The notes: generated by a model not told the origin, from the letters alone. A stretch of DNA of 64,000 bases from an uncultured Enterobacteriaceae bacterium (GCA_964565875.1 CAZMGP010000016.1:12269-76268), one strand, 5' to 3'. Numbered from the stretch's first letter, positions 501-64,000 are shown. Translations and numbers: made by a program.

Positions 501-752
501 CTATTCGACGCGTGCGTATTCGTTCTGCCCCTGATTGCGCGACTTGAGCGCGTTCTCCCAGCTCGCCTTGTCGCCCTTCGACCACTTGGAGCTGGTGTAG
601 AGGCTGTTGGACGGATCGTTTTCCCAGGGCCGCGTATCGGTCTTGCCTTGGTACTTGCCCTGCTCGTAGACGACGACCTGCTCGCGCTCGCCGCAACCCG
701 CCAGGCCGGCAAGCAGCGCAGCCACGCACAGCATAGAAAGCATTGGTCTCAT
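501..752 (-). CDS. Small lipoprotein (83 aa) embedded in the fdh operon
   Basis: C-terminal part of ORF 501..1202. Internal ATG at 752 overlaps the fdhB stop (ATGA). Signal plus lipobox MRPMLSMLCVAALLAGLAGC; hydrophilic mature part. Confidence 0.55.
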   Translation of the reverse strand: MRPMLSMLCVAALLAGLAGCGEREQVVVYEQGKYQGKTDTRPWENDPSNSLYTSSKWSKGDKASWENALKSRNQGQNEYARVE

Positions 753-1363
753 GACTTGGCTCCTTTGGCTGGCTGTTCGGGTTTGCCGTAGGCGGTCGAC
801 CAGCCCCAGGCTTCCACGCCCTTGCCGCGGCGCAGGACGCGCGTGCGGAAGATCTCGGCCACTACGTCGGCGTCGCCCGCGAGCAACGCCTTGGTCGAGC
901 ACATCTCGGCGCAAGCGGGGAGCTTGCCCTGCGCCAGACGGTTGGAGCCGTATTTCTCGAACTCTTCCTTGGAATTGTCCTTTTCCGGTCCGCCCGAGCA
1001 GAAAGTGCACTTGTCCATCTTGCCGCGCATGCCGAACACGCCCGCCTGCGGGAACTGCGGCGCCCCGAAGGGGCAGGCGTAGAAGCAGTAACCGCAGCCG
1101 ATGCACATGTCCTTGTCGTGCAGCACCACGCCCTGCTCGGTGCGGTAGAAGCAATCGACCGGGCACACGGCCATGCACGGCGCATCCGAGCAGTGCATGC
1201 ACGACACCGAGATCGATTTTTCCCCCGGCACGCCGTCGTTCATGGTCACCACGCGGCGGCGGTTCACGCCCCAGGGCACCTCGTTCTCCTGCTTACAGGC
1301 AGTCACACAGCCGTTGCACTCGATGCAGCGCTCGGCGTCGCACAGGAATTTCATTCTCGCCAT
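749..1363 (-). CDS. Formate dehydrogenase beta (4x[4Fe-4S]) subunit
   Basis: 204 aa with ferredoxin-type Cys clusters (CIECNGCVTAC, CMHCSDAPCMAVCP, CIGCGYCFYACP, CTFC). Strong SD GAGGAGGAGGAGA. Lies directly downstream of the alpha subunit. Confidence 0.9.
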   Translation of the reverse strand: MARMKFLCDAERCIECNGCVTACKQENEVPWGVNRRRVVTMNDGVPGEKSISVSCMHCSDAPCMAVCPVDCFYRTEQGVVLHDKDMCIGCGYCFYACPFGAPQFPQAGVFGMRGKMDKCTFCSGGPEKDNSKEEFEKYGSNRLAQGKLPACAEMCSTKALLAGDADVVAEIFRTRVLRRGKGVEAWGWSTAYGKPEQPAKGAKS

Positions 1364-1379
1364 GATCGTCTCCTCCTCC

Positions 1380-49573: not shown

Positions 49574-50239
49574 TCAAGTAACGAGCAAGCCCTTCTCGAT
49601 GGCGTAGGCCGTCAGTCCCGCAGTCCGGTGCGTACCGAGCTTCGCCATCAGCTTGGCGCGATGCTTCTCCACCGTCTTCACGCTGAGGAACAGGTATTCG
49701 GCGACCTCCTTGTTCGACCTTCCTTCGGCGACAAGCTTGAGCACTTCGCGCTCGCGGTGCGTGAGCATTTCCAGGGAACTGTAGGGCCGCGATCCGTTCC
49801 CCGACTCCGCGGCATGCTCGACGATCGCCGACACGTCTCGGCTGAAATAGCTCTTGCCCGCGGCCACGCTGCGCACGGCCTTGCGCAGTTCCTCGTGCGT
49901 CGCGTCTTTGAGCAGATAGCCGTCCGCGCCCGCGCGCAAGCTGGCGAAGATGAATTCGTCGAGCTTGTGCAAGGTCACCACCAGGATGCGCGTTTCCGGA
50001 TGGCGCCGCTTGATATCGGTGATCGCCTCCATGCCGTTCATGCCGGGCATGGTCAAGTCCATCAGCACCACGTGCGGTTGCAACTCTCCGGCGACACGAA
50101 TCGCATCGCGTCCATTGTCGCATTCGCCGACAACGGAAAAACCCGCCTCCTGTGACAGGAGCGCGCGCAATCCCGTGCGGATCAAGGTGTGATCTTCGAC
50201 GATGAGGATGCGAAGCCTGCCGTCTGCGTTATCGTCCAT
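49574..50239 (-). CDS. NarL/LuxR-family response regulator
   Basis: 221 aa. REC domain (LIVEDH, VVLMDLTMPGMNG) plus a LuxR-type HTH. Confidence 0.92.
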   Translation of the reverse strand: MDDNADGRLRILIVEDHTLIRTGLRALLSQEAGFSVVGECDNGRDAIRVAGELQPHVVLMDLTMPGMNGMEAITDIKRRHPETRILVVTLHKLDEFIFASLRAGADGYLLKDATHEELRKAVRSVAAGKSYFSRDVSAIVEHAAESGNGSRPYSSLEMLTHREREVLKLVAEGRSNKEVAEYLFLSVKTVEKHRAKLMAKLGTHRTAGLTAYAIEKGLLVT

Positions 50240-50299
50240 AGTGTTTTTCCTTCCCTATACAAACCGGCTCCGCCACCGTAACTGCCCCGGGGCGTCGAA

Positions 50300-51511
50300 T
50301 CACCCCAGCTCGAGGCGTGCGGCGTTCGCCGGACCTGCTCTTGTGCGCTCGATCTCGCAGCGCTGCTCGCCCGCGGACCGGGATTGCGGCCAACGCACGC
50401 GGATCGATGTCCCCTTCCCCGGCGCGGACTCGAGCGCATAGTTGCCGCCGGAGTGCCGCGCGCGCTCGCGCATGCTGTGCAAGCCGAGTCCGCCGGCGAA
50501 ATCGCCCTTTGCTCCCGCCGCGTCGGGATCGAAGCCGCGCCCGTCATCCTCGATGCGGAGCTCGAGGGCGCCGCGCCGCTTCGCCAGCCGGACTCTGATG
50601 CAGCAGGCGCCGGCATGCTTGAGCGCGTTGTTGCTGGCCTCTTGCACTATCCTGAATATCGGCGTCTTGAGCGCTTCGGGAATGTCCGATTCGGAAACCT
50701 TGATCTCGCGCTCCACCGCGACGCCGCCGGCGGCGGATTCGAATTCGCGAAAATACCAAGCCAAGGTGGCGAGGATTCCCAGATTGTCCAGGGTGGCAGG
50801 ACGCAGGTTCATGGCGATGCGGCGCACATCTTCGATGGCATCGCGAATCTTGCGGTTCAAGTGCTTCAGATAGGCTTTCGCCTGCACCCGATTGCCTGCG
50901 TCGAGCAATTCCGACAGGCGCACCATCGAAACGCTCACCAGGCTCAATGATTGCCCCAAGCCGTCGTGCAAGTCCGCGGCGATGCGCTGGCGCTCCGCCT
51001 CTTGAATGTTCAAGTGTTGTGCCGCGCGCCGGCACAGTTCGTTCTCCGCGTCGCGCAAGGCGGCAGCCGTGCGTGCTTCTGCACCTAGATCCTGCGCATA
51101 CAACGTCAGGCCATCGAGCCGACCATTACCGTCGCAATGCGCGCTGATTGCCAGCATCGCTTCGAGGATTGCGCCGTCTTTTGCGATCAGCGCCGCTTTC
51201 CCGCTCCAGATGCCGTTGCGCACGGCCAGCGGAATCGCACGGCGCACGATGCCGCGGCGCTGCGCGGGCGCGATGCAGCCGATCAGCGTCGTCGCGGCGG
51301 CCGCCCCGCCGCCTGAGCCCAAAAGTGCGCGGCCCGCTGGGTTGACGTAGCGCAGCTCTCCGCTGCAGTCGGCGATCGCCACCAGCGCGGGCATCGTCTC
51401 GACCGCGGCAAGCAGTCGCGCGCTTAGTTGCTCGCTAGCCGGGCGCCGGCGCAGGCTGCCTGGTGTCGCGCCGGGTTTGCGACGGGCTTCAGGCGGCCGC
51501 GTGACAGGCAT
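50300..51511 (-). CDS. Cytoplasmic PAS-domain histidine kinase (HisKA_3 type, intact)
   Basis: 403 aa. H-box RIAADLHDGLGQ, N-box EASNNALKHA, G1 EDDGRGFD, G2 GGLGLHSMRERA. Confidence 0.9.
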   Translation of the reverse strand: MPVTRPPEARRKPGATPGSLRRRPASEQLSARLLAAVETMPALVAIADCSGELRYVNPAGRALLGSGGGAAAATTLIGCIAPAQRRGIVRRAIPLAVRNGIWSGKAALIAKDGAILEAMLAISAHCDGNGRLDGLTLYAQDLGAEARTAAALRDAENELCRRAAQHLNIQEAERQRIAADLHDGLGQSLSLVSVSMVRLSELLDAGNRVQAKAYLKHLNRKIRDAIEDVRRIAMNLRPATLDNLGILATLAWYFREFESAAGGVAVEREIKVSESDIPEALKTPIFRIVQEASNNALKHAGACCIRVRLAKRRGALELRIEDDGRGFDPDAAGAKGDFAGGLGLHSMRERARHSGGNYALESAPGKGTSIRVRWPQSRSAGEQRCEIERTRAGPANAARLELG

Positions 51512-51891: not shown

Positions 51892-52542
51892 TTACTTGTT
51901 GTGACAGGTCTTGCACAGAGCACTGCCCGTGCCCGCTACCTTCAGCAGCCCCGGGCCGGGCACCGTGTACTTGTTGTGAACGTCGTGGCAGGTGGAGCAC
52001 TCCACTTGTCCGCTGAATAGAATCACCGAAGCGATGGTGCCGGTCTGCGTCTGCGTTCCCGAGCCGATGGTCACCACCTGCGAGCTCGGGTCGAACAACG
52101 AGCCGTTCGCCACGGCCAAGGCGGAATCGTAGACGAAACCGATCGGATGATCGTCCTTCAGATTGGCACCGATGTTGTTGGCGCTGCTGATGTAAGTTGA
52201 GCCTGACGCGCCGCCGAAACTATCCACCGCGACGGTGCCGTCGTGGCACGACAGGCACAGTTTCGACAATATCCCCGGCTGCCCGATGCTGGCCTTCAGC
52301 GTCGCACTGCCGTAGAGCGCGTAACTTTGGGCGGACAGCGCGTGATTCCATTGCGGCGCGCCCGGGATCGAAGTCATCGAACTGTGCGAGTCGTGGCAAG
52401 TGATGCAGACCTGGCCACCCGACCAGTTGTAATTGGTGAAGTCGTGGGCCGAACCCAGGATCGATCCGGCCTCGGCGGCGTGCGCCGCGAGCACCAACAC
52501 GCCTGCCACAGACAACTTAATCGCGCGCTTGCTCCAGTACAT
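51892..52542 (-). CDS. Tetrahaem c-type cytochrome, paralogue 3
   Basis: Preferred ATG at 52542 (SD GGGAGGA). 216 aa with signal peptide. Four CxxCH motifs (CITCH, CLSCH, CSTCH, CKTCH). Ends 2 residues after the last haem motif. Confidence 0.88.
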   Translation of the reverse strand: MYWSKRAIKLSVAGVLVLAAHAAEAGSILGSAHDFTNYNWSGGQVCITCHDSHSSMTSIPGAPQWNHALSAQSYALYGSATLKASIGQPGILSKLCLSCHDGTVAVDSFGGASGSTYISSANNIGANLKDDHPIGFVYDSALAVANGSLFDPSSQVVTIGSGTQTQTGTIASVILFSGQVECSTCHDVHNKYTVPGPGLLKVAGTGSALCKTCHNK

Positions 52543-52618
52543 GTCGATCCTCCCGTGCCAGTGCGGGCAAGTCCGCCGATCGGCGATGGACACCACTTCC
52601 CGCGCTGCCGCCTTCTCC

Positions 52619-53269
52619 CTAGTAATTGTGACAAGCGAAGCAAATCGCGCTTCGCGCCGTGCTGATTTTCATCAGCCTTGCCGTCGTCGCCGTGTAGGTG
52701 TTGTGCACGTCGTGGCAGGACGAACATTCGATCTGCCCGCCGTAGAGCATCATCGCGGCGATGGTACCGGTTTTCGTCTGCGCGCCGCTGCCGATCGTCA
52801 CCGTGGTGACGCTCGGATCGAACAGCGCTGCGTCGCGAACGGCGAGCGCGGAGTCATAAAGAAAACTCGAAGGATGATGCACGTTCAAGTCGGTCCCGAG
52901 CTTGTTCGCGCTGCTGATATACACGCCGCCGGGTGCCCCCCCGTAGCTGTCGACCGCGACCGTGCCGTCGTGGCAGGAAAGGCACAGCTTCGATGCGCTC
53001 GAGGGCTGGCCCATCACCGCTTTGAGCGTCGTGCTCGAGTACAGCGTGTACACCTGGGTGCTGCCGGCGTGGTTCCATAGCGGCGCGGCGATCACGGCGC
53101 TTTGTCCCTTGTGCGGCACGTGGCAGGCGATGCAGATCTGCCCGCCCGACCACGCCGCCGTGGAAAAATCGTGTGCCGATCCCATGATCGTGCCCGCTGC
53201 GGCAGGATGGGTTGCGAGCGCGAACAATGCCGCCGCCAGACATGCGCTCATCCGCTTCGTCGTATTCAT
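52619..53269 (-). CDS. Tetrahaem c-type cytochrome, paralogue 2
   Basis: Preferred ATG at 53269 (SD GGAGG 9 nt upstream). 216 aa with signal peptide. CIACH, CLSCH, CSSCH, CFACH. Confidence 0.88.
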   Translation of the reverse strand: MNTTKRMSACLAAALFALATHPAAAGTIMGSAHDFSTAAWSGGQICIACHVPHKGQSAVIAAPLWNHAGSTQVYTLYSSTTLKAVMGQPSSASKLCLSCHDGTVAVDSYGGAPGGVYISSANKLGTDLNVHHPSSFLYDSALAVRDAALFDPSVTTVTIGSGAQTKTGTIAAMMLYGGQIECSSCHDVHNTYTATTARLMKISTARSAICFACHNY

Positions 53270-53296
53270 GCCGCTCACCCTCCTGATACGCGCCCG

Positions 53297-55015
53297 CTAA
53301 TAGCTTTTCGGATTATGGCTCTCCCCGTGGCACACCAGATAGCACTGTCCATGGTTGGTCCCGGTGGAGATGAACTGCAGTCTTCCGTTCACCGGCTTGA
53401 CGATCGAGGTGTCGAAATTGATCAGCTTGCTGTTGTTGGTCGGCGTGCCCTGGGTGGAGCTGATGCCGTGCGGATCGTGGCAGGCGTTGCAGGGCGAGCG
53501 CTCCTCCACCACGTGCTTGCGGTGGCCGTCGTCCGTGCCGAAGGGCGAGGCACCATTGCTGGCGGAGGTCAGCACGGTGCGGTTATGGCACTTGTAGCAA
53601 AGCGCGTAATTCGCCGCGCTCTCGGTAGTGCGGTCTGCAGTGACGTATTGGCGCTCGAGCAAGGTCGGATAGATCGAGCCATGCGGCCCCTTCGGTCCGG
53701 TCCCGCCCGCACCGGGCCCAGTATTGTTGTTGTGGCAGTCCCCGCAGCGCATCGTGCTCGCGATCGTCCAGGGCGGCAGCAGGCTGGGCACGTTGGTGTT
53801 CTTCCCCGGGCCGGCAACCGGATGGTAGGAAGGATTGCCGGTGTTGAATTCGAGGCGCGTGTTGTTCTGCGCGATTTGCCGCGTCGTGTGCGACGCCGGC
53901 ATGCCGCTGCTGTCGGCGTGGCAGCGGAAACAGATCTGGTACTCGGCGATGACCGGATTGATGGCGAGGCCGTTGATGTCGATACCGCGTACGCCGGTCA
54001 GCGAACCGGGCACGGTGCCGGCGACGGCGTTCGATGCATGGGGATTGTGGCAGTCCTGGCATTCCACATGGCGCGATTGCACCACGGCAGTTTCGCTCGG
54101 ATCGTGCACGCCGGTGTTGGCCGCCACCGGATGGATCGAAGCCTTGTTGAATTCCGTCTGGATGTTGAACGTCGCCACGTTGGCGTTGTGGCAGGGGTAG
54201 CAATTGGCCTCCTCCGCCGCCGCGTTTTGCAACCACCTTTTGCCGCCGGCCGAATGCGGCCGGTGGCAGTTCTCGCAGCCGTTGGCCGCGACCGTGGCGC
54301 CGCTCGTATGCGCCCAGGGGCTCGCGCCGACGCCGTTCCAGGTCTTCGGCGACAAGCTGTGGTCGCTCTGCGCCCAATAGTTCTTCAGATGGCAGACCTG
54401 GCACAGCGCCGAGGCCTGATTCGGCATCACCAGGAACTTGCCGTTGGGATCCTCGTGCGGATCGTGGCAGGAGGTGCACTGCAGTTGGCCGGTGGAGTCC
54501 AGCCGCACCGGCCCGGTGAGCGTCGCCGGGTCGGCGAGTTCACCGCGCGTAGACGCAAGCGTCAACGTATAGGCGATGGACACCGGGTGGTCGTCGGAGA
54601 GATCGGTGCCGAGCAGCGTATTGCCTGCGCCCAGGGTCGTCGTCCCGCTCGCCATCGCGACCGCGCTGGCGCGGCTCAGCACTTCGCCCAATGCGATGGT
54701 GCCGTCGTGGCAGGACAAGCACATGAGCGACCCGCGCGTCGGCTGGCCGGCGTTGGCTTTGGCGGTCGAACTGGTGTAAGGCGTATAGGTCGAGGCGGGC
54801 GTGCGCCGGTTCCACAGCTGCATGCTCGGCGCCGCATTGTGCGGCGCGTGACAAAAAACGCAAATCTGGGTTTCGCCCGTCGCCTTCACCGTCCCCGGCC
54901 CGGATACGGAGAGATTGTGCTTGGTCGCTGCAATCCCGGCCCAGGCTTGGCTCGCGCTCAGCATCAGGGCCGCGGCGAGCAGGCGTGTCCACCGGCGCCG
55001 ATGTGCGCCGTTCAC
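53297..55015 (-). CDS. Multihaem c-type cytochrome (11 CxxCH + 1 CxxxCH)
   Basis: 572 aa. GTG start overlaps the upstream stop (GTGA). Signal peptide ...ASQAWA. KHNLS...CVFCHAPH N-terminal module. Confidence 0.9.
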   Translation of the reverse strand: MNGAHRRRWTRLLAAALMLSASQAWAGIAATKHNLSVSGPGTVKATGETQICVFCHAPHNAAPSMQLWNRRTPASTYTPYTSSTAKANAGQPTRGSLMCLSCHDGTIALGEVLSRASAVAMASGTTTLGAGNTLLGTDLSDDHPVSIAYTLTLASTRGELADPATLTGPVRLDSTGQLQCTSCHDPHEDPNGKFLVMPNQASALCQVCHLKNYWAQSDHSLSPKTWNGVGASPWAHTSGATVAANGCENCHRPHSAGGKRWLQNAAAEEANCYPCHNANVATFNIQTEFNKASIHPVAANTGVHDPSETAVVQSRHVECQDCHNPHASNAVAGTVPGSLTGVRGIDINGLAINPVIAEYQICFRCHADSSGMPASHTTRQIAQNNTRLEFNTGNPSYHPVAGPGKNTNVPSLLPPWTIASTMRCGDCHNNNTGPGAGGTGPKGPHGSIYPTLLERQYVTADRTTESAANYALCYKCHNRTVLTSASNGASPFGTDDGHRKHVVEERSPCNACHDPHGISSTQGTPTNNSKLINFDTSIVKPVNGRLQFISTGTNHGQCYLVCHGESHNPKSY

Positions 55016-56049
55016 ACCGCGCCCCCGACATAGCGCAGCACCTGCACGCGCTGGTTATAGGAATCGGCGATATAGATCCGGTCGTGCTCGTCGATGAAAA
55101 TGCCGGTCGGCAGCCAAAACTCGCCGCGCTCGCGGCCGAGTGTTCCGACGGAGAGGAGCAGCGCGCCGCGCTCGTCGAATACCTGCAGCGCGTTGAACAG
55201 CGAATCCACCACGTAGACGTGTCCGTAGCGGTCGGTGGCGACGCCCTTCTGCCGGCCGAGGTCGCCGTTGCCGTCGCCGTAGCGTCCGAACTTGCCGACG
55301 AAGTGCCCCTGCGGATCGAACATTTGCACGCGGAAGTTCAACGCGTCGGTGACGTAGAGCCGCCCTTCGGCGTTGCGCCAGGCGAGCGTCGGATAATTGA
55401 ATTCGCCGTCCGCCGTGCCGCGACGGCCGATGCTCGTAACCAGGGCACCGCCGCGGTCGAATACCTGCACGCAGTGCGCCCGCGTGTCGACCACGAACAG
55501 GCGTCCGCTTGCGGGATCGAAGGCGAGGCCCGTAGGCTGCTGCAGCTTCGCCTGCAATGGAAGCGGCGCAGCCGTCTTCGCGCCGGGCCGGATGAGGTAG
55601 ACCGCGGCGAGCGCCGAGTCGCTGACGTAGACTTCGCCTTCCGCGCCGCGCGCAAGGCCCACCGGGGAGAGCAAGGGGCGCTCCTGTGGCCCTTGGATGA
55701 GCGCGTATTCGCCGCGCGCGCGGTCGAAGCGATGTACCCCTTTCACGCCGGGGTCGGCGACGTACACGACGTCGCCTACCGTCACCACCGACATCGGCCG
55801 AATCAGGCGTGTTTCGCTGCGCCCGAACAAGAGATCGCCCAGACGCGCCAGCAGTCCGCGTTCGATGCCCAAATCCTCGGGTCGGGAAAAGGCGCGCACG
55901 TAGGCAAGACGCGGTGGATCGGGCGCCGCGGGCCATGCCAGGGCGGGTTCCTCGTGCCGCTCTTGCGCGCTCGGCGCGCAGCCGGCGAGCGCAAGCGCCA
56001 GGGCGAGCCCAAGCGAGGTGCTGAAGATCGCTTTGGCCGTCACGCTCAA
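55012..56049 (-). CDS. NHL-repeat beta-propeller lipoprotein
   Basis: Preferred TTG at 56049 overlaps the barrel-gene stop (TTGA); GTG at 56043 is also possible. Lipobox LALAGC. Six repeats of the type (V/L)YV(A/V/T)DxxNxxVQ(V/M)FD. Confidence 0.83.
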   Translation of the reverse strand: MSVTAKAIFSTSLGLALALALAGCAPSAQERHEEPALAWPAAPDPPRLAYVRAFSRPEDLGIERGLLARLGDLLFGRSETRLIRPMSVVTVGDVVYVADPGVKGVHRFDRARGEYALIQGPQERPLLSPVGLARGAEGEVYVSDSALAAVYLIRPGAKTAAPLPLQAKLQQPTGLAFDPASGRLFVVDTRAHCVQVFDRGGALVTSIGRRGTADGEFNYPTLAWRNAEGRLYVTDALNFRVQMFDPQGHFVGKFGRYGDGNGDLGRQKGVATDRYGHVYVVDSLFNALQVFDERGALLLSVGTLGRERGEFWLPTGIFIDEHDRIYIADSYNQRVQVLRYVGGAV

Positions 56050-58148
56050 AAGTCCCTGCGCGCGAGCAATTGAACGAGCGCGCGCGAGCGTTTGAAATCG
56101 CCCTGCGTCTCGAGCGTGCGTCCGATATCCAGGCTCACGCTCGCCTTGCGGTAACGCCACTGCGCCTTCAGCGACTCCATCGTCCGGCGGCGCGGAATCG
56201 GGCTGCCGTTGTCGCTTTCGTAGCCCGCGTTCAAAGACAGATCGATACCGAACCAGTAGCGCGACCAGTAGCGCAGGTCATAGCCTTGGAGGTTCACGTT
56301 CTGCAGGGAGTTGGCGTAGTCGACGCGCATGCGCCGCGCCGACAGCCGAATGTTGCCGGTGCCGAAAAACGGCTCCTCCGACTGCACGTAGACGTCGCCC
56401 GACTGGCGCTTGTAGGGGGAAATGGTTTCGCGCCGGTCTTCGTGCTCCAGGTTGCCGCCGATGCTGATTTCGAAGCGCGCTTTCAGCGGCAGATCGGCGC
56501 GCAGGCCGTAGAGATTGCTCTTGATGGCATTCAGCGGAAAAGTCGGCGTGCCCGAAGTCAGGCGCGGCGCCGAATCGAAATAGCGGAAATAGACGCTGGC
56601 GTAGCTGAGCCAGCCCAGACTCAGATTCAGCGTCTGATCGGCCTGGTTGTAGGTGAAGCTGCCGCCGACGTCGTAAGCGTAATCCGCGAGCACGTCCTGC
56701 CCGTCGACGATCGCCCCGCCGATGAGCCGTTGCACCCGGGTCAGCGTGCCGATCACGGTCAGCGTGTAGTCGAAACCTTCGACATAGGTCTGCGTGCGCG
56801 TGGCGTTGGCGAGCACCAGGCTGCCGCTCGCCACATGCTGCTGGGCGAGCGCGACGAACGAAGTTCCGGCGAGCGTGAGGCGTTCGCCGATGATGCGTGC
56901 CTGTGTCGCCGCCGCCTGCTGCTCGCGCTGGTCGTAGCGCAAGCCGTAGCTCGCCAGCGCCGTGGTGCTACCCAGCTTCTCTTGATAGCGGACGGATCCG
57001 TCCGCGCCGCGGTTACGCGCGTCGAGTTGCTTGGTCCGATTATCGTCGGCGTGCACCCCGAGTGCGCCGGTCCACTCGGGGCGCGGCGCATAAGTCAAGC
57101 CGGCGGAAGCCGCGTGCGCCACCGAACTCAGATCGGCCTGATCGCTCGCTGCGTAATTGAGCAAGCCGAAAGTCTGCAATTCCTTGGAATGCCGGCCGCG
57201 CAGGTCGAGCAGGATCCGCTCGTCCTTCCGGTCCGGGATCGAAGTGCCGCCGGCGAGCGCGTAGCTTTGCGTGTTGACGGTGATGAGGTTGGTCAGGTCG
57301 TACTCGCGCGCGCTGCCGAATTGGAAGCGCGAATCGAGGTTGAGACCCTGATTGCTCGAATTCGACGCCTGAATCGGCAGATTCGGGCTGCCGCTCAACG
57401 ACGCCTGCTGCGTCGTCTGGAATTGCAGCTGGGTCGATCCCAGGCCACCGAAGCTGCGGCTCGCCCGCAGATTTACCCGGTCCACCTGATCGTCGACGAT
57501 GCGGTCCGCGCCGCGCCCTTGAAAATGCGAGCGCGTCGCATCGATGAACAGCGGTACCGGCGTCACCGGGGCGAGCAGCGAGAAATCGAAGCCGTAACGC
57601 GTGTTTTCCTGCGTCATCACCTGCCCCGGCGCGACGCTCACGGTCGGGTTGAGGTGATCGAAGAACAGCGATCCCTGATAGGGCTTGTCGTGCAGGAAAC
57701 TCGCGCGGCTGGTGAAATTGTAGAGGGTGCCGCGCGATTGGGTTTCGCCCGCATCCGAGACGAAACTGCCGTGCTGCAGGATCGGCCCCCCGCCGATATC
57801 CAGCGACAGCAGATTGGGATGATAGACATAGCTGTGCGTCATCAAGAACACTTCCTCGCGCATGTCCGACATGGCCTGGCGCGAGCGCGAACCGGCTGCC
57901 GCGCCCACCGCAGGCTGTTCGGTGGCGAAGTCGTCACGCAGGTAGCGCATGGTGACGTAGCCCTCGGTCCCGGTGATACGGAAAGGCGCGATCTGTTGCG
58001 CGACGCAAGGCCAGGCGCCGAGCGCGGCCATAGCGACTGCGACGCGAAATACACCGCTGATCGAGGCATGCTCGCATGTCAGGCTTCCTGCTCGTTGCGC
58101 CTCGGCGGCCGGGGCACAGAAGGACAATTCCGCTATGCGCGCCGTCAA
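56046..58148 (-). CDS. Large outer-membrane beta-barrel (porin-like) protein
   Basis: 700-aa ORF. Alternating amphipathic strand pattern throughout (YGFDFSL, LQFQTTQ, GIDLSLNAGYES) and a C-terminal ...LLARRDF with terminal Phe. The TTG start at 58148 overlaps the upstream stop. The N-terminus/signal peptide is uncertain. Confidence 0.7.
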   Translation of the reverse strand: MTARIAELSFCAPAAEAQRAGSLTCEHASISGVFRVAVAMAALGAWPCVAQQIAPFRITGTEGYVTMRYLRDDFATEQPAVGAAAGSRSRQAMSDMREEVFLMTHSYVYHPNLLSLDIGGGPILQHGSFVSDAGETQSRGTLYNFTSRASFLHDKPYQGSLFFDHLNPTVSVAPGQVMTQENTRYGFDFSLLAPVTPVPLFIDATRSHFQGRGADRIVDDQVDRVNLRASRSFGGLGSTQLQFQTTQQASLSGSPNLPIQASNSSNQGLNLDSRFQFGSAREYDLTNLITVNTQSYALAGGTSIPDRKDERILLDLRGRHSKELQTFGLLNYAASDQADLSSVAHAASAGLTYAPRPEWTGALGVHADDNRTKQLDARNRGADGSVRYQEKLGSTTALASYGLRYDQREQQAAATQARIIGERLTLAGTSFVALAQQHVASGSLVLANATRTQTYVEGFDYTLTVIGTLTRVQRLIGGAIVDGQDVLADYAYDVGGSFTYNQADQTLNLSLGWLSYASVYFRYFDSAPRLTSGTPTFPLNAIKSNLYGLRADLPLKARFEISIGGNLEHEDRRETISPYKRQSGDVYVQSEEPFFGTGNIRLSARRMRVDYANSLQNVNLQGYDLRYWSRYWFGIDLSLNAGYESDNGSPIPRRRTMESLKAQWRYRKASVSLDIGRTLETQGDFKRSRALVQLLARRDF

Positions 58149-59287
58149 CGGTTGAGCTTGGCCGTGGTCTTCGCCGACGCGCCGTCTTCAGCCGCGTAGT
58201 CCGCGCCGCGCATCTTGCCGAAACCGAAGACATCGACCTTGTTTTGGCCGAATTGGCTCACTACGAATATCAGGTATTGCAGATCGAATCCCGGTGCGGC
58301 GTAACGACGGAACGCCTCTACGTTGTCGTAGTCGATGGCGACCGCGGCGGGAAGATTCAATCCTTCGCGATTGTCGCCCGGCTGGCCGAAGAACAGCAGC
58401 AGGTGGCCGTCGTTGTCGAACACCTGCACGTTCTCGAAGGCCGAGTCGCCGACGTACAGGCGCCCCTCGCGGTCGATGGCGATGCCCTTCGGCCGGGAAA
58501 AATTGCCGCGTTCGTTGCCGATCTCGCCGTAGGCGCGCAGCGGTGCGCCGTCGGCGGTGAAGCGCTGCACGCGGAAATTGCTGGTTTCCACCACGTAGAC
58601 GTCGCCGTTCGGGCCGATGGCGATGTTGGTCGGATGAAACAGCTCTCCCAGCTTCGATCCCGCCTGGCCGAACGTGAACAGCAGCTTGCCCGAGCGCTTG
58701 TCCAATACCTGCACCTGATGGTGCTGGATGTCGACCACGTAGAGTCGCTCTCCCGCGATGGCGGTGTCCACCGGCTTGAACTGCTTATCGCCGCCGAATG
58801 CATTGACGAATCGGTCGTCGCGATCGAACACCAGCACTTGGTCACGGCCGGTGTCGGTGACGTACTTGGTGCCGTCGGCGTCGACAGTGATGTTGATCGG
58901 CCGCTTCATGCGGCCGCTCGGGGCGCCATTGACGAGGCTGAACGACTGCCGCGCGAGATCGAACACCGCCAACCCCGGCGCGCGGCTGTCGACGACGTAG
59001 AGCTTACCGTCGAACATCGCCACGCCGTAGGGCTGCTTGAGCTGCTGCACCTTGGCGTCGTCGCCGAGAACGAACTGCGCGAATCCGCTCGTCGCTGCGC
59101 CCAGGTCACGCTCGCCGCTGATGGTCTTGAGATGCTGGATGCGCGGAGCTTCCGGCGCCGGCGGATAGAACGTCGGTCCCTGGACACGCGGCGCCTCCAC
59201 CGGCGCCGTCGCGCATGCCGCGAGCAGCGCGACGAGGCAGACGCTCGCCGCACTCCGGCGCAAATTCATCGCGCGCATCCGGACCAT
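58145..59287 (-). CDS. NHL-repeat beta-propeller lipoprotein (paralogue)
   Basis: 380 aa with lipobox LLAAC and repeated LYVVDxxxxxVQVxD-type NHL blades. Confidence 0.85.
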   Translation of the reverse strand: MVRMRAMNLRRSAASVCLVALLAACATAPVEAPRVQGPTFYPPAPEAPRIQHLKTISGERDLGAATSGFAQFVLGDDAKVQQLKQPYGVAMFDGKLYVVDSRAPGLAVFDLARQSFSLVNGAPSGRMKRPINITVDADGTKYVTDTGRDQVLVFDRDDRFVNAFGGDKQFKPVDTAIAGERLYVVDIQHHQVQVLDKRSGKLLFTFGQAGSKLGELFHPTNIAIGPNGDVYVVETSNFRVQRFTADGAPLRAYGEIGNERGNFSRPKGIAIDREGRLYVGDSAFENVQVFDNDGHLLLFFGQPGDNREGLNLPAAVAIDYDNVEAFRRYAAPGFDLQYLIFVVSQFGQNKVDVFGFGKMRGADYAAEDGASAKTTAKLNR

Positions 59288-59298
59288 TGCTCTCGCTG

Positions 59299-59961
59299 CT
59301 ACTTGTTGTGGCAGGCCACGCAGATCTTGCTGCCCGCCGTGTCCATCTTCACCATGCCGGTGCCGTTGGCGCCGACGGCGAAAGTGTTATGCACGTCGTG
59401 GCAGGAGGAGCATTCCATCTGGCCGTTGAACAGCATCACCGAGGCCACGGTACCGGTCTTGGTCTGCGCTCCGGCGCCGATGGTCACGGTTTTCGTCGCC
59501 GGGTCGAACAGCGAGCCGTTGGCGTTGGCGAGCGTGGTGTCGTAGAGGAAACCGATCGGATGATCGTCGTTCAGGGCGGCGCCGCCGAGATTGTTCTTTG
59601 CGCTGATGGTCGTGGTGCCCACCGTGCCGCCGAAGCTGTCGACCGCCACTGTACCGTCGTGGCAGGACAGGCACAGCTTGGAGTTGCCCTCCGGCTGCCC
59701 CAGCGCTGCTTTCAATGTCGGGCTGCTGTAGAGCGTATACACCTGCGTCGTCACCGCGTGGTTCCACAGGGGCGCCGCGGACACCGAGGTATTGCTGTTG
59801 TGCGGCGTATGGCAGGTAACGCAGACCTTCTGTCCCGGGTTCCAGTTCGCGGTGGAAAAGTCGTGCGCCGATCCCGCCAAAGTGCCGGCGAAGCCGAACT
59901 GTGCCGCTAGCAGCAGTCCCGTCCCTGCGATCCATTTAACTGCGACTGTCAGTGATTTCAT
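59299..59961 (-). CDS. Tetrahaem c-type cytochrome, paralogue 1 (first gene of operon)
   Basis: 220 aa, SD GAGGAG, signal peptide. CVTCH, CLSCH, CSSCH, CVACH. Confidence 0.88.
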   Translation of the reverse strand: MKSLTVAVKWIAGTGLLLAAQFGFAGTLAGSAHDFSTANWNPGQKVCVTCHTPHNSNTSVSAAPLWNHAVTTQVYTLYSSPTLKAALGQPEGNSKLCLSCHDGTVAVDSFGGTVGTTTISAKNNLGGAALNDDHPIGFLYDTTLANANGSLFDPATKTVTIGAGAQTKTGTVASVMLFNGQMECSSCHDVHNTFAVGANGTGMVKMDTAGSKICVACHNK

Positions 59962-60243: not shown

Positions 60244-61137
60244 ATGAACTACGAAGCCACGCTGACTCAAGCGGCGGCCGCGCGCCGCCCGGACACCCCT
60301 GCACCTGCTGTCGACACGCCTGCGCCTGCGCAGCAGCCGAAGCGCGTACCGCCGTCCGCCGCGATCGCCGCCATGTCGACGATGCTCCTCGTCTGGGCGT
60401 GGAACGTGCACCACGCCGGCCTGTACCAATCGGGAAAGGGTCTCGGCTACGTTCTCGGCCTAGTCGGCGGCTCGCTGATGCTGGTGCTGCTCCTCTACCC
60501 GTTGCGCAAGCACCTGCGCGTCATGCACGAATGGGGGCCGCTCAAATATTGGTTTCGTTTCCACATGATCGCGGGCGTGCTGGGGCCGCTGCTGGTGTTG
60601 TTCCATTCGACCTTCCGCGTCGGTTCGCTGAACGCGGCCGTAGCGCTCGCCTGCATGCTGCTCGTTGTCGCGAGCGGGCTCGCCGGCCGCTTTCTCTACC
60701 GCAAGATTCACCACGGCCTGTACGGCAGCCGCGCGAGCCTGCAGGAATTGCAGCAAACCCTGGCGCGCGAACGCGAAGCGCTGTCGCATTTGCTCGCGCG
60801 CCTGCCGCAAGTCGAGCGCGAGATCGACCGCTTCGCCGCCCTGGTCGCCCACGAGCCGCAAGGCTGGTACCGGCGCTGGGCGCATTTTCTATCGCTGGGT
60901 GCGAAACGCGCACTCGCGGTGCACCGTGCGCGGCGCGCCGTAGCGGCGCACGGTGTCCGATCAGACCTCGCCGCCCTGCTCGTCACCATCGACGCCACGC
61001 TGAAAGCGGTACAGCGCACGGCGCAGTTCTCCACCTATGAGCGCCTGTTTTCCCTCTGGCATGTGGTCCACATTCCGTTCTTGTGCATGCTGGTCATCAC
61101 TGCCCTCATCCATGTCGTGGCTGTTCACGTTTACTAG
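60244..61137 (+). CDS. Integral membrane protein with two His-x13-His helices (candidate di-haem b electron conduit)
   Basis: 297 aa with about 5 predicted TM helices. FRFHMIAGVLGPLLVLFH and WHVVHIPFLCMLVITALIHVV carry His pairs with 13 intervening residues. Confidence 0.7.
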   Translation: MNYEATLTQAAAARRPDTPAPAVDTPAPAQQPKRVPPSAAIAAMSTMLLVWAWNVHHAGLYQSGKGLGYVLGLVGGSLMLVLLLYPLRKHLRVMHEWGPLKYWFRFHMIAGVLGPLLVLFHSTFRVGSLNAAVALACMLLVVASGLAGRFLYRKIHHGLYGSRASLQELQQTLAREREALSHLLARLPQVEREIDRFAALVAHEPQGWYRRWAHFLSLGAKRALAVHRARRAVAAHGVRSDLAALLVTIDATLKAVQRTAQFSTYERLFSLWHVVHIPFLCMLVITALIHVVAVHVY

Positions 61138-62923: not shown

Positions 62924-62944
62924 GGAGCCGGGGCGCGCACGTCG

Positions 62945-64000
62945 ATGAGCAACTTGCTCCTCCCCTTGAGCTATCTCGTGCCGCTCGTGCTGCTGCTCGG
63001 CACCTACGTCTATCGCTGGCGCCGGCGCGAGGCGCGCGCCGCGGACACGCTCGCGCGCTCGCTGAAGACGGGGTTGACCGAGCCGCCCAGCCTGCATCCC
63101 GTGATCGACCTGAATTTGTGCATGGGATCTGGCGCGTGCACGCGCGCCTGTCCGGAAGGGACCTTGGGCATCGTCAAGGGCAAGGCGCACATGATCAACC
63201 CCACCGTCTGCATCGGCCACGGCGCCTGCGCCGCTGCATGTCCGGTCGAGGCGATCAAGCTGGTGTTCGGATCGGCGCGCCGCGGCGTCGACATTCCCTA
63301 CGTCAAGCCGACGTTCGAGACCAACGTGCCTGGGATATTCATCGCCGGCGAACTCGGCGGCATGGGACTGATCCGCAATGCCGCCGAACAGGGACGGCAG
63401 GCGATGGAGTCGATTGCGCGCAACCGCGCGCAGCCCGATCAGTTGGACGTCGTGATCATCGGCGCGGGTCCGGCCGGACTGTCGGCGACGCTCGCGGCGA
63501 TGGAGCACAAGTTGCGCTTCGTCACGCTGGAGCAGGAGGACTCTCTCGGCGGCTGCGTCTACCACTATCCGCGCAACAAGATCGTCGCCACCCATCCGGT
63601 GACGCTGCCGCTGGTAGGCAAAGTCAAGTTGGGTGAGATCTCGAAGGAATCCTTACTCGAATTCTGGCAGGGCATCGTCAAGCGCACGTCGATGTCGATC
63701 CGTTTCGGCGAATGCATGGACAGCATCACCGCCGTGGACCGCGGGTTCATCGTGAAGACCGGGCGCGCTGAATACCGCTGTCGCTCGGTGCTGCTCGCCA
63801 TCGGCCGCCGCGGATCTCCGCGCAAGCTCGGCGTGCCCGGCGAGGAACTGTCCAAAGTCGTCTATCGCCTCATCGACCCGGAGCAATATCGGGGCAAGCA
63901 TGTGCTGGTGGTGGGCGGCGGCAACAGCGCGGTCGAAGCCGCAGTCGCGCTCGCGGAAGAACCGGGATCGAGCGTGACCATTTCCTACCGCGGCGAGAGC
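62945..64000 (+). CDS. Membrane-anchored Fe-S / FAD-NAD(P)-binding oxidoreductase, N-terminal 352 codons (runs off the right edge)
   Basis: Absent from the ORF track because it has no stop in the window. Manual translation: N-terminal TM helix (LLLPLSYLVPLVLLLGTYVY), two ferredoxin-like motifs CMGSGACTRACP and CIGHGACAAACP, then VVIIGAGPAGLSA (FAD) and VLVVGGGNSAVEAA (NAD(P)) Rossmann motifs. Confidence 0.8.
   Translation, partial: MSNLLLPLSYLVPLVLLLGTYVYRWRRREARAADTLARSLKTGLTEPPSLHPVIDLNLCMGSGACTRACPEGTLGIVKGKAHMINPTVCIGHGACAAACPVEAIKLVFGSARRGVDIPYVKPTFETNVPGIFIAGELGGMGLIRNAAEQGRQAMESIARNRAQPDQLDVVIIGAGPAGLSATLAAMEHKLRFVTLEQEDSLGGCVYHYPRNKIVATHPVTLPLVGKVKLGEISKESLLEFWQGIVKRTSMSIRFGECMDSITAVDRGFIVKTGRAEYRCRSVLLAIGRRGSPRKLGVPGEELSKVVYRLIDPEQYRGKHVLVVGGGNSAVEAAVALAEEPGSSVTISYRGES

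What the first reader, a model, noticed from the sequence alone, without database searches (positions are those of the whole stretch)
51892..59961. Seven-gene operon of multihaem cytochromes, NHL beta-propeller lipoproteins and a large outer-membrane barrel: candidate uncharacterised extracellular electron-transfer machine
Seen in sequence: one tightly packed minus-strand operon. It encodes, in order, a tetrahaem cytochrome, an NHL lipoprotein, a 700-aa beta-barrel, an NHL lipoprotein, a 12-haem cytochrome and two more tetrahaem cytochromes.

The middle four genes are joined by 4-nt start/stop overlaps (TTGA, TTGA, GTGA), which implies stoichiometric co-production. All the cytochromes carry Sec signal peptides. 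Both NHL proteins carry lipoboxes. The barrel ends in a terminal Phe, like outer-membrane proteins.

Established knowledge: porin-cytochrome complexes (MtrCAB, Geobacter Pcc) move electrons across the outer membrane, but none of them uses NHL propellers.

From memory, to be verified: NHL-repeat proteins and a barrel accompany the filament-forming cytochromes OmcS/OmcE in Geobacter. NHL proteins also accompany an undecahaem cytochrome in the proposed 'Uet' electron-uptake cluster of Ca. Tenderia electrophaga.

Inference: this is a betaproteobacterial outer-membrane conduit or cytochrome secretion-assembly system whose mechanism is undescribed.
Basis: partly seen in the sequence, partly recalled or inferred. 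Interest (0 to 1): 0.88.

Follow-up and report, generated by a model that had tools for sequence, protein, structure and literature searches.

The report
OmcE-like cytochrome nanowire gene cluster
This betaproteobacterial operon encodes relatives of the Geobacter OmcE 'nanowire' cytochrome plus a giant outer-membrane barrel, two propeller lipoproteins and a 12-haem cytochrome; it is a real, widely conserved module for moving electrons across the cell surface, but of a kind already described (OmcE and Uet clusters), not an unknown machine.

Summary
In detail: there are seven tightly packed minus-strand genes with the stated order, haem counts, lipoboxes, overlaps and terminal Phe.

The interpretation needs updating.
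- The three tetrahaem proteins are full-length homologues of OmcE, the Geobacter and Desulfuromonas nanowire subunit (E 1e-16 to 1e-18 against solved filaments). All four CXXCH motifs and all four distal His ligands are kept.
- The 12-haem protein starts with an even better OmcE-like domain. Its 8-haem tail is related to Geobacter GSU0615.
- Both NHL lipoproteins match the NHL lipoprotein of the Geobacter omcE cluster.
- The 700-aa protein models confidently (pLDDT 93) as a barrel of about 30 strands. It belongs to a large unannotated family with no detectable sequence homology to the Geobacter barrel.

The five-gene core recurs in the same order in more than 50 beta- and gammaproteobacterial genomes. 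Its composition matches the published 'Uet' cluster and the 'minimal omcE cluster'.

Next door lies a divergent operon of the PCC3 type: an inner-membrane di-haem-b protein, a 24-haem cytochrome and an FeS flavoprotein.

Verdict: a new member of a known kind. Function is inferred, not shown. The most novel reading is that the 12-haem protein anchors and wires the filament through the barrel.

The parts
59299..59961 (-). g1: secreted tetrahaem cytochrome, OmcE homologue (UetA-like); candidate major filament subunit
   Evidence: It has 4 CXXCH motifs. It matches the solved OmcE filaments over its full length: 9yuq E 8e-18, 7tfs E 2e-16. The 4 distal His are invariant. Orthologues are the first gene of the core in nearly all related loci. 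A strong GAGGAG Shine-Dalgarno lies upstream.
58145..59287 (-). g2: NHL beta-propeller lipoprotein (lipobox LLAAC, Ala at +2, so outer-membrane sorting is expected)
   Evidence: Pfam NHL E 1e-19. Matches the NHL protein of the Geobacter omcE cluster at E 4e-40. It is 33% identical to g4.
56046..58148 (-). g3: outer-membrane beta-barrel of about 30 strands with a small inserted beta subdomain (about residues 427-474); ends in Phe
   Evidence: No Pfam hit. AlphaFold2 gives pLDDT 93.2 and pTM 0.83, with 30 long strands. Foldseek finds only generic large outer-membrane barrels at TM 0.3-0.36. The family has 920 representative clusters, none annotated.
55012..56049 (-). g4: second NHL beta-propeller lipoprotein (lipobox LAGC)
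   Evidence: Pfam NHL E 5e-25. Matches the Geobacter NHL361 protein at E 2e-63, 35% identity over 322 aa.
53297..55015 (-). g5: 12-haem cytochrome (UetJ-like). Residues 1-211 form an OmcE-like tetrahaem domain. Residues 212-572 form an 8-haem extension related to Geobacter GSU0615-type cytochromes.
   Evidence: It has 11 CXXCH plus one CX3CH, all invariant in 99 orthologues. The N-terminal domain matches OmcE 7tfs at E 7e-29. The C-terminal part matches Geobacter MHC370 at E 5e-13 and shares the terminal CX3CH..PKSY motif.
52619..53278 (-). g6: second OmcE-like tetrahaem paralogue (58% identical to g1)
   Evidence: It is present only in the closest relatives (L001, L054, L022).
51892..52596 (-). 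g7: third OmcE-like tetrahaem paralogue (60% identical to g1). The likely true start is 52542.
50300..51511 (-). PAS / HisKA_3 histidine kinase downstream of the operon
   Evidence: Pfam. It is syntenic in L001 and L054.
49574..50239 (-). NarL/LuxR-type response regulator
   Evidence: Pfam Response_reg plus GerE. It is syntenic in L001 and L054.
60244..61137 (+). u1: divergently transcribed inner-membrane protein of the PCC3/PCC4 'IMP' type, a candidate di-haem-b transmembrane electron carrier
   Evidence: No Pfam hit. About 5 hydrophobic segments by hydropathy and by eye. The motifs W103x3H107x13H121, S144GxxG148 and W272x3H276x13H290 are at least 90% conserved in 31 sequences. This equals the signature defined in PMC5566968.
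61037..62923 (+). u2: 24-haem periplasmic cytochrome built of c7/c3-like repeats. The real start is probably about 61112.
   Evidence: 24 CXXCH motifs. Pfam Cytochrome_C7 E 2e-30. It lies next to u1 in about 30 loci.
62945..64000 (+). u3: membrane-anchored 2x[4Fe-4S] plus FAD/NAD(P) oxidoreductase (cut by the window end)
   Evidence: Pfam Fer4_10 and Pyr_redox_3. It is adjacent to u2 in 28 related loci.

Best explanation
This is a proteobacterial member of the OmcE/Uet type of outer-membrane cytochrome module.

Shown here (by sequence or model):
- g1, g6 and g7 are OmcE-fold tetrahaem cytochromes.
- g5 is an OmcE-like domain fused to an 8-haem rod.
- g3 is an outer-membrane barrel of about 30 strands.
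- g2 and g4 are outer-membrane-anchored NHL propeller lipoproteins, homologous to the one in the Geobacter omcE cluster.

Inferred mechanism:
1. All seven proteins are exported by Sec and receive their haems in the periplasm.
2. The barrel, with the two propellers docked on its periplasmic face, is both the exit pore for the tetrahaem subunits and the housing for g5.
3. g5's 8-haem tail carries electrons through the outer membrane.
4. g1, the first gene with the best ribosome-binding site, polymerises outside the cell into an insulated OmcE-like haem wire by His-to-haem ligation between subunits.
5. g6 and g7 are minor or alternative subunits, controlled by the adjacent PAS kinase and LuxR-type regulator.
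6. The divergent u1-u2-u3 operon connects the module to the inner membrane. It encodes a di-haem-b membrane protein, a periplasm-spanning 24-haem cytochrome and an FeS flavoprotein.

The direction of electron flow is unknown. The hosts are mostly denitrifying or lithotrophic beta- and gammaproteobacteria, which suits electron uptake from, or bidirectional exchange with, minerals or partner cells.
For: Homology to solved OmcE filaments:
- g1 matches over its full length (E 8e-18 and 2e-16).
- The g5 N-domain matches at E 7e-29.
- All 4 CXXCH motifs and the 4 distal His are invariant in g1, g6, g7, g5N and both solved OmcEs, and in 68-70 of 70 orthologues.

Homology of the accessory genes to the Geobacter omcE locus:
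- NHL lipoproteins: E 4e-40 and 2e-63.
- g5 C-terminal part against the GSU0615-type cytochrome: E 5e-13, with a shared terminal CX3CH..PKSY motif.
- Some related loci also carry separate GSU0615-like (36-39% identity) and GSU0616-like proteins.

Barrel: AlphaFold2 pLDDT 93.2 with 30 long strands. Foldseek places it only among large outer-membrane barrels, including MtrB and the FimD/PapC ushers.

Synteny and coupling:
- The core order g1-g2-g3-g4-g5 is kept in more than 50 of 64 genome loci.
- The 4-nt g4/g5 overlap is conserved in distant loci.

Literature:
- Petersen et al. define nanowire-type OmcE homologues by exactly this context (large barrel plus propeller lipoprotein) and report them in Pseudomonadota.
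- The uet cluster has the same components and is expressed on cathodes.
- oscEFG are proposed to be needed for OmcS secretion.

Inner-membrane link: u1 has the PCC3/PCC4 IMP signature, u2 has 24 haems, and u3 is co-conserved in 28 loci.
Against: - No filament, localisation or phenotype data exist for any proteobacterial member.
- Identity to the solved OmcEs is only about 30-40%.
- The g1 family carries an extra His (WNH, 60 of 70 orthologues) and loop deletions.
- The barrel shows no detectable sequence homology to the Geobacter omcE-cluster barrel: pairwise search, an HMM of 131 sequences and hhalign at 2.4% probability all failed. Equivalence of the pore is therefore only positional and architectural.
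- The g5 structure model failed (pLDDT 58), so its rod shape and fit into the barrel are untested.
- The operon encodes no prolyl isomerase, unlike UetB in Tenderia and the folding factor OscH in Geobacter.
- Most cultured hosts (Azoarcus, Aromatoleum, Ramlibacter) are not known for extracellular electron transfer.
Confidence: 0.6

Rival explanations
1. A porin-cytochrome conduit without a polymer (the published Uet model). g5 sits in the barrel as MtrA sits in MtrB. The tetrahaem proteins act as monomeric surface or periplasmic redox partners, like MtrC or small shuttles. The NHL propellers only stabilise the complex.
For: - The Uet description proposes this arrangement.
- Foldseek lists MtrB among the best barrel matches.
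- g5 gives weak hits, below the curated thresholds, to the DmsE/MtrA decahaem and MtrC-domain families.
- The barrel, g4 and g5 are translationally coupled, as expected for a stoichiometric complex.
- The count of eight His per four haems cannot tell a monomer from a polymer.
Against: - g1, g6 and g7 align end to end with two experimentally solved filament subunits and keep every ligand.
- Their genomic context meets the criterion used to pick nanowire-type OmcE homologues.
- A barrel of about 30 strands is wider than needed to hold one haem rod (MtrB has 26).
Confidence: 0.25
2. A dedicated secretion and assembly machine only. The barrel and propellers export and assemble the cytochromes, in a usher-like way as proposed for OscEFG, but carry no current. 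Electrons reach the exported cytochromes through other conduits encoded elsewhere in the genome.
For: - The osc genes are described as secretion factors for OmcS.
- The ushers FimD and PapC are among the structural matches.
- Petersen et al. describe the barrel as 'secretion or anchor'.
Against: - g5 is universally co-encoded and translationally coupled to the barrel and NHL genes.
- It carries 12 invariant haem sites, which argues for a resident electron-carrying component.
- The PCC3-type inner-membrane and periplasmic genes are adjacent.
Confidence: 0.1
3. A periplasmic redox enzyme system unrelated to extracellular electron transfer. The cytochromes would be electron carriers for a periplasmic reductase or oxidase, the barrel a substrate porin, and the NHL proteins enzymes or binding proteins.
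For: - The tetrahaem proteins give weak hits, below threshold, to NrfH/NrfB-type families.
- The NHL proteins give hits below threshold to ScyF/SGL-type propellers.
- The hosts are mostly denitrifiers.
Against: - All those hits are far below the curated cut-offs and reflect shared motifs only.
- The operon encodes no catalytic subunit.
- The homology to OmcE and to its cluster partners is specific and full length.
Confidence: 0.05

Closest known systems
omcE nanowire gene cluster of Desulfuromonadia (G. sulfurreducens GSU0615-0619 region; D. soudanensis WTL); OmcE filament structures 7TFS and 9YUQ
   Same: - A tetrahaem OmcE-fold subunit with identical haem-ligand positions.
- Homologous NHL beta-propeller lipoproteins.
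- A GSU0615-related multihaem domain.
- A large barrel of 700-750 aa with no Pfam family and a C-terminal Phe.
- All in one compact cluster.
- The published minimal set is 2 multihaem cytochromes, 2 propeller lipoproteins, OmcE and a barrel.
   Different: - The gene order differs.
- The barrels show no detectable sequence homology.
- Here one 12-haem protein fuses an OmcE-like domain to the GSU0615-like part, instead of two separate multihaem cytochromes.
- There are three tetrahaem paralogues.
- There are no glycosylation genes.
- A PCC3-type inner-membrane operon lies alongside.
- No filament has been observed experimentally.
uetABCDEFGHIJ cluster of 'Ca. Tenderia electrophaga' / Tenderiales and some Gallionella
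   Same: The component list matches: tetrahaem (UetA), a barrel predicted at 28 strands (UetC), two NHL proteins (UetH, UetI), and an 11-12-motif 'doubled CXXCH' cytochrome (UetJ). c7-type trihaem modules are also present here, as the 24-haem u2. The barrel family is also found in gammaproteobacteria (Thioalkalispiraceae, Thiohalobacter).
   Different: - This operon has no prolyl isomerase (UetB), no cupredoxin (UetF) and no separate trihaem proteins (UetD, UetE, UetG).
- The order here is A-H-C-I-J rather than A to J.
- Direct sequence comparison with the Tenderia proteins could not be run.
osc (OmcS-companion) cluster of G. sulfurreducens (Shen et al. 2025, read only through secondary sources)
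   Same: The concept is the same: accessory proteins encoded next to a nanowire cytochrome are needed for its secretion and assembly, in a porin-like pathway.
   Different: The subunit there is the hexahaem OmcS, which is unrelated in sequence to OmcE. Homology of g2-g4 to OscE, OscF and OscG was not testable here.
PCC3 / PCC4 putative porin-cytochrome clusters of Fe(II) oxidisers (He et al. 2017)
   Same: u1 has the defining inner-membrane-protein signature: about 300 aa, 5 TM helices, SGxxG on TM4, and WX3HX13H on TM3 and TM5. u2 is a repeat-rich periplasmic cytochrome with 24 haems, in the 21/24/27 range reported for PCC3.
   Different: The outer half is different. PCC3 has one very large extracellular cytochrome (10-63 haems) and its own porin, with no OmcE-like tetrahaem and no NHL propellers.
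MtrCAB / Geobacter Pcc porin-cytochrome complexes
   Same: A multihaem cytochrome is co-encoded with a large outer-membrane barrel. MtrB is among the best structural matches.
   Different: There is no membership of the MtrB, MtrA/DmsE or MtrC families: all hits fall far below the curated cut-offs. The barrel is larger (about 30 against 26 strands). NHL lipoproteins are present.

Membership tests
OmcE-type nanowire subunit | Secreted protein of about 220-240 aa with four CXXCH motifs | tested here: met
   g1, g6 and g7 each have 4 CXXCH motifs and a signal peptide.
OmcE-type nanowire subunit | Four conserved distal His ligands (bis-His haems) at OmcE positions | tested here: met
   H31, H58, H149 and H208 (OmcE numbering) are invariant in g1, g6, g7, g5N, 7TFS and 9YUQ. 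They are kept in 68-70 of 70 orthologues.
OmcE-type nanowire subunit | Full-length sequence similarity to a solved OmcE filament subunit | tested here: met
   g1 matches 9yuq at E 8e-18 and 7tfs at E 2e-16 over residues 11-220. Against Geobacter OmcE, g6 scores E 4e-25 and g7 E 1e-22.
OmcE-type nanowire subunit | Genomic context with a large outer-membrane barrel and a beta-propeller lipoprotein (the criterion of Petersen et al.) | tested here: met
OmcE-type nanowire subunit | Polymerises into an extracellular filament, with one haem ligated by a His of the neighbouring subunit | not testable with these tools
   This needs AlphaFold3 with haems, cryo-EM or biochemistry. The property is known for OmcE.
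Desulfuromonadia omcE gene cluster | NHL/beta-propeller lipoprotein(s) homologous to the cluster's propeller | tested here: met
   Against the Geobacter NHL361 protein, g4 scores E 2e-63 and g2 E 4e-40.
Desulfuromonadia omcE gene cluster | Accompanying multihaem cytochromes of the GSU0615/0616 type | tested here: inconclusive
   The g5 C-terminal 8-haem part is homologous to the GSU0615 type (E 5e-13, shared terminal CX3CH..PKSY). However, it is fused to an OmcE-like domain, and the window has no GSU0616-like gene.
Desulfuromonadia omcE gene cluster | Barrel homologous to the 752-aa Geobacter barrel | tested here: not met
   No hit by blastp or phmmer, by an HMM of 131 family members, or by hhalign (2.4% probability). 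Only size, position, lack of a Pfam family and the terminal Phe are shared.
Uet cluster (Tenderiales) | Tetrahaem, large barrel, two NHL proteins and an undecahaem-type cytochrome co-encoded | tested here: met
   Composition compared with the published list. The match is by description only.
Uet cluster (Tenderiales) | UetB prolyl isomerase, UetD/E/G trihaem c7 proteins and UetF cupredoxin inside the cluster; gene order A to J | tested here: not met
   None of these lies in 51892-59961. The order here is tetrahaem-NHL-barrel-NHL-12-haem.
Uet cluster (Tenderiales) | Sequence orthology to the Tenderia proteins (ALP54622-ALP54629, UetJ) | not testable with these tools
PCC3/PCC4 inner-membrane protein (for neighbour u1) | About 300 aa, five TM helices, SGxxG on TM4, WX3HX13H on TM3 and on TM5 | tested here: met
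   u1 is 297 aa. The motifs W103x3H107x13H121, S144GxxG148 and W272x3H276x13H290 are at least 90% conserved in 31 sequences. The definition is in PMC5566968. Five helices were read by eye; the 19-residue hydropathy scan flagged only about four hydrophobic stretches.
MtrCAB / Pcc porin-cytochrome | MtrB-family porin and an MtrA/DmsE-family decahaem cytochrome | tested here: not met
   The barrel has no Pfam hit. For g5, TIGR03508 scores 48.6 bits against a cut-off of 192. The Foldseek TM-score to MtrB is only 0.36.
osc (OmcS companion) machinery | Homology of the barrel and propellers to OscE, OscF and OscG | not testable with these tools
   The Osc sequences and the primary paper were not available.

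The most novel reading that the evidence does not exclude
The 12-haem protein (g5, UetJ type) may be a built-in anchor subunit. In this reading, its N-terminal OmcE-fold module joins or nucleates the end of an extracellular filament made of the tetrahaem paralogues. Its covalently attached 8-haem tail threads the barrel of about 30 strands down to the 24-haem periplasmic cytochrome and the di-haem-b inner-membrane protein. That would give one continuous haem path from the cytoplasmic membrane to a micrometre-scale wire.

This would answer an open question about insulated cytochrome nanowires: how they are started, anchored and electrically plugged into the cell. Petersen et al. state that no such candidate is encoded in the Desulfuromonadia omcE operons.

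A variant of the idea is that g5 itself polymerises through its OmcE domain and forms a wire decorated with 8-haem side arms.
Probability: 0.2. Interest if true: 0.8.

Novelty: new member of a known kind. Interest (0 to 1): 0.45.

Why it matters
Cytochrome nanowires have been seen only in Desulfuromonadia and two archaea. How they are exported, anchored and fed with electrons is unresolved.

This locus shows a compact proteobacterial version that may be easier to dissect. It recurs in more than 50 beta- and gammaproteobacterial genomes, including cultured strains such as Azoarcus sp. DN11, Aromatoleum toluvorans Td21 and Ramlibacter lithotrophicus.

The sequence evidence here links three literatures that had been treated separately:
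- Geobacter OmcE nanowires.
- The Tenderia and Gallionella 'Uet' electron-uptake cluster.
- The PCC3 inner-membrane and periplasmic module.

If the module works as inferred, OmcE-type wires would take part in electron uptake or exchange by denitrifying, sulfur-oxidising and iron-oxidising proteobacteria, not only in metal reduction.

Tried and rejected
- The first genome-contig scan, using the barrel as a single protein, found nothing. The 142-sequence alignment was too divergent to use. A 29-sequence alignment worked.
- Tests for homology between the window barrel and the Geobacter 752-aa barrel were all negative: blastp and phmmer, an HMM, and hhalign.
- AlphaFold2 of g5 with a 125-sequence alignment gave pLDDT 58. 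I did not use it or search folds with it.
- The PDB sequence search found no solved relative for g5's C-terminal 8-haem part. For u2 it found only a cytochrome c3 at E 3e-5.
- The sigma-70 promoter and terminator scan gave nothing above the shuffled controls.
- Inverted repeats in the g1/u1 intergenic region are not conserved in L001 or Azoarcus DN11, so I dropped them as candidate operators.
- The source organism could not be named. The identical g5 protein (P0391) is in NCBI on a 77.5-kb contig but carries no name or record.
- The primary papers of Shen et al. 2025 and Wang et al. 2022 are not held. Their content is cited only through secondary sources.
- I rejected the NCBIfam hit of the barrel to a phage tail-tube family. 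At 32 bits it is below the cut-off of 60, and it probably reflects a beta-rich insert.

Full report
**1. Observation**

The region 51892-59961 carries seven consecutive minus-strand ORFs. Their third-codon-position GC is 0.81-0.85, the same as the rest of the 65% GC window, so nothing suggests recent acquisition.

| Gene | Coordinates | Size | Features |
|---|---|---|---|
| g1 | 59299-59961 | 220 aa | 4 CXXCH |
| g2 | 58145-59287 | 380 aa | lipobox LLAAC |
| g3 | 56046-58148 | 700 aa | ends RRDF |
| g4 | 55012-56049 | 345 aa | lipobox LAGC |
| g5 | 53297-55015 | 572 aa | 11 CXXCH plus C558-x3-C562-H |
| g6 | 52619-53278 | 219 aa | 4 CXXCH |
| g7 | 51892-52596 | 234 aa | 4 CXXCH |

- The junctions g2/g3, g3/g4 and g4/g5 are 4-nt overlaps. 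The other gaps are 11, 18 and 22 nt.
- g7 almost certainly starts at the ATG at 52542, behind a GGGAGGA Shine-Dalgarno. That gives 216 aa, as in its orthologues.
- The twelfth haem motif of g5 is CX3CH.
- The barrel's start codon is uncertain.
- Pfam confirms NHL repeats in g2 and g4 and multihaem domains in the cytochromes. It finds no family at all for the 700-aa protein.

**2. What the cytochromes are**

A sequence search of the PDB gave the key result.

- g1 aligns end to end with two cytochromes solved as extracellular filaments. One is the D. soudanensis OmcE bundle (9YUQ, E 8e-18). The other is the G. sulfurreducens OmcE nanowire (7TFS, E 2e-16).
- The first 211 residues of the 12-haem protein g5 match OmcE even better, at E 7e-29.
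- I aligned g1, g6, g7, the g5 N-domain and both solved OmcEs. All four CXXCH motifs and the four distal histidines that complete bis-His ligation are invariant.
- The same eight positions are kept in 68-70 of 70 tetrahaem orthologues from related loci.
- g1, g6 and g7 are 57-60% identical to each other and 32-37% identical to Geobacter OmcE. The g5 N-domain is 40% identical to it.
- The g1 family has one extra His (WNH, 60 of 70 orthologues) that OmcE and g5 lack.
- All 12 haem motifs of g5 are invariant in 99 orthologues, and 17 further His are conserved.

**3. Comparison with the Geobacter omcE locus**

I fetched the G. sulfurreducens locus. Its order is purHDE, a trihaem cytochrome, resB, ccsB, two multihaem cytochromes (370 and 330 aa), an NHL protein (361 aa), OmcE, a 752-aa protein without a Pfam family, then glycosyltransferases.

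- g4 and g2 match the NHL protein at E 2e-63 and 4e-40.
- g2 and g4 are paralogues, 33% identical.
- The C-terminal 8-haem part of g5 matches the 370-aa cytochrome at E 5e-13. The two also share an unusual C-terminal CX3CH..PKSY ending.
- So g5 looks like an OmcE-like domain joined to a GSU0615-like domain.
- The barrels do not match by blastp or phmmer, by an HMM built from 131 diverse family members, or by hhalign (2.4% probability).

**4. The barrel**

- The family is large: 263 clusters at 90% identity and 920 representative clusters at 50% identity.
- All members listed by the annotated search are nameless or 'hypothetical protein', with no Pfam domain; the representative library holds no annotation at all.
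- AlphaFold2 with a 142-sequence alignment gave pLDDT 93.2 and pTM 0.83. The model is all-beta, with 30 long strands and a small beta insert at about residues 427-474.
- Foldseek against the PDB returned only generic large outer-membrane barrels at TM 0.3-0.36: TonB-dependent receptors, MtrB, the FimD/PapC ushers, LptD and SlpA.
- The barrel is wider than MtrB and LptD (26 strands each).

**5. Distribution and synteny**

A scan of one genome per species found 64 loci. The hosts are beta- and gammaproteobacteria:

- Betaproteobacteria: Rhodocyclaceae, Sulfuritalea, Sterolibacterium, Azoarcus sp. Aa7, Aromatoleum toluvorans Td21, Rhodoferax, Ramlibacter lithotrophicus, Thiobacillus and Rubrivivax.
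- Gammaproteobacteria: Acidiferrobacteraceae, Thiohalobacter, Thioalkalispiraceae, Thiogranum, Ca. Thiodiazotropha and Sedimenticola.

Findings from these loci:

- In more than 50 of them the order tetrahaem-NHL-barrel-NHL-(11+1)-haem is identical, although barrel identity falls to 25%.
- The 4-nt overlap between the second NHL gene and the 12-haem gene recurs in distant loci.
- The two extra tetrahaem genes occur only in the nearest relatives (L001, L054, L022). The kinase and regulator are seen in L001 and L054.
- Some loci also carry separate GSU0615-like and GSU0616-like cytochromes and five-haem OmcE-like proteins.
- The complete genome of Azoarcus sp. DN11 has the eight-gene locus.
- The window's own genome is in NCBI (identical g5 protein, 77.5-kb contig) but could not be named.

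**6. Surroundings**

Three genes are transcribed divergently from g1.

- u1 (60244-61137) is a 297-aa membrane protein with no Pfam family.
- It carries W103x3H107x13H121, S144GxxG148 and W272x3H276x13H290, all at least 90% conserved.
- This is exactly the signature He et al. defined for the inner-membrane protein of the PCC3/PCC4 clusters, a presumed di-haem-b carrier.
- u2 (to 62923) has 24 CXXCH motifs in c7/c3-like repeats. That falls in the 21/24/27 range of PCC3 periplasmic cytochromes.
- u3 (62945 to the window end) is a membrane-anchored 2x[4Fe-4S] plus FAD/NAD(P) oxidoreductase.
- u3 lies next to u2 in 28 related loci.
- Downstream of g7 lie a PAS/HisKA_3 kinase and a LuxR-type regulator. 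They are syntenic in the closest relatives.

**7. What is already known**

- Petersen et al. (bioRxiv 10.1101/2025.10.22.684050) solved the second OmcE filament.
- They selected nanowire-type homologues by that context and found them 'predominantly in Thermodesulfobacteriota and Pseudomonadota'.
- They favour a porin-mounted assembly model. They also note that no tip or stopper candidate is encoded in those operons.
- Shen et al. 2025 report that oscE, oscF and oscG are needed for OmcS secretion. I could read this only through PMC13194489 and Petersen et al..
- The uet cluster of Ca. Tenderia electrophaga lists a tetrahaem UetA, a prolyl isomerase, a 28-strand barrel UetC, three c7 trihaems, a cupredoxin, two NHL proteins and an undecahaem UetJ. 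It is linked to cathode oxidation.
- Gallionella genomes have it too, with an '11 and 12' motif doubled-CXXCH UetJ.
- NHL propellers were also noted beside outer-membrane cytochromes in Desulfovibrio ferrophilus.
- In the searchable library no paper connects UetA to OmcE.

**8. Interpretation**

The sequence evidence places this operon in the OmcE/Uet kind of outer-membrane cytochrome module.

- Shown by sequence or model: the OmcE fold signature, the NHL homology, the GSU0615-like tail, the barrel architecture, the conserved synteny and the PCC3-type neighbour.
- Inferred only: export through or assembly on the barrel, polymerisation of g1, electron passage through g5, the roles of g6 and g7, and the direction of electron flow.
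- Main rival: the non-polymer porin-cytochrome model proposed for Uet. Sequence alone cannot separate the two, because a monomer and a polymer need the same number of His ligands.
- Most novel reading not excluded: g5 is an anchor subunit that joins the filament through its OmcE-like domain and wires it through the barrel. My attempt to model g5 failed (pLDDT 58), so this stays a hypothesis.

**9. Verdict**

The locus is a new member of a known kind, perhaps a compact variant. It is not a categorically new machine.

Interest is moderate. A specialist would not be surprised that it exists. However, this operon type ties together the OmcE, Uet and PCC3 literatures. It also points to cultured hosts in which the open questions about nanowire export and anchoring could be tested.

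Noticed in passing
window 60244-64000 (+): A divergent three-gene operon sits next to the finding. It encodes a PCC3/PCC4-type inner-membrane protein (WX3HX13H twice, plus SGxxG), a 24-haem c7/c3-repeat cytochrome, and a membrane-anchored 2x[4Fe-4S]-FAD/NAD(P) oxidoreductase that runs off the window end. It is co-conserved with the operon in about 28 Rhodocyclales-type loci.
   Followed up: yes
window 48080-51511: A PAS/HisKA_3 histidine kinase and a LuxR-type response regulator lie directly downstream of g7. A further 497-aa protein on the + strand has a weak HisKA_3 match. The kinase and regulator are syntenic in the closest relatives (L001, L054). No binding site was identified.
   Followed up: partly
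window 53297-55015: The public call of the identical protein (P0391, 555 aa) starts at an internal ATG and would remove the n-region of the signal peptide. The upstream GTG start (572 aa) has a 4-nt overlap with the NHL gene, fits the orthologues and gives a proper signal peptide.
   Followed up: yes
window g2 residues about 40-50, g4 residues about 38-48; L002:8338-9423: Both NHL lipoproteins and the Geobacter omcE-cluster NHL protein share a short motif just after the lipid anchor: (F/Y/W)-P-P/A-x-P-E/D-x-P-R-I/L. It may be a docking segment.
   Followed up: no
L027, L028, L034, L055, L061 (upstream of the core): Some related loci encode five-haem OmcE-like proteins, plus separate 9-haem GSU0615-like and 7-haem GSU0616-like cytochromes. 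The five-haem type resembles the 'possible new OmcE nanowire family' mentioned by Petersen et al.
   Followed up: no
L001:1672-3900: In the closest relative the locus sits next to ffh and a CcsA-like cytochrome c assembly gene. Desulfuromonadia omcE clusters are reported to lie between ccsB and ffh. This may be coincidence or a shared insertion neighbourhood.
   Followed up: no
window g3 residues about 418-501 (DNA about 56646-56897): The barrel's only family hit is a match below threshold to a phage tail-tube model (32 bits against a cut-off of 60). It coincides with a small beta-hairpin insert that interrupts the barrel strands in the AlphaFold model. The insert could be a plug or an extracellular subdomain.
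   Followed up: partly
window 749-4292 (-): A 970-aa molybdopterin oxidoreductase and a 4Fe-4S subunit lie at the far end of the window. They look like a periplasmic or membrane redox enzyme with no evident link to the operon.
   Followed up: no
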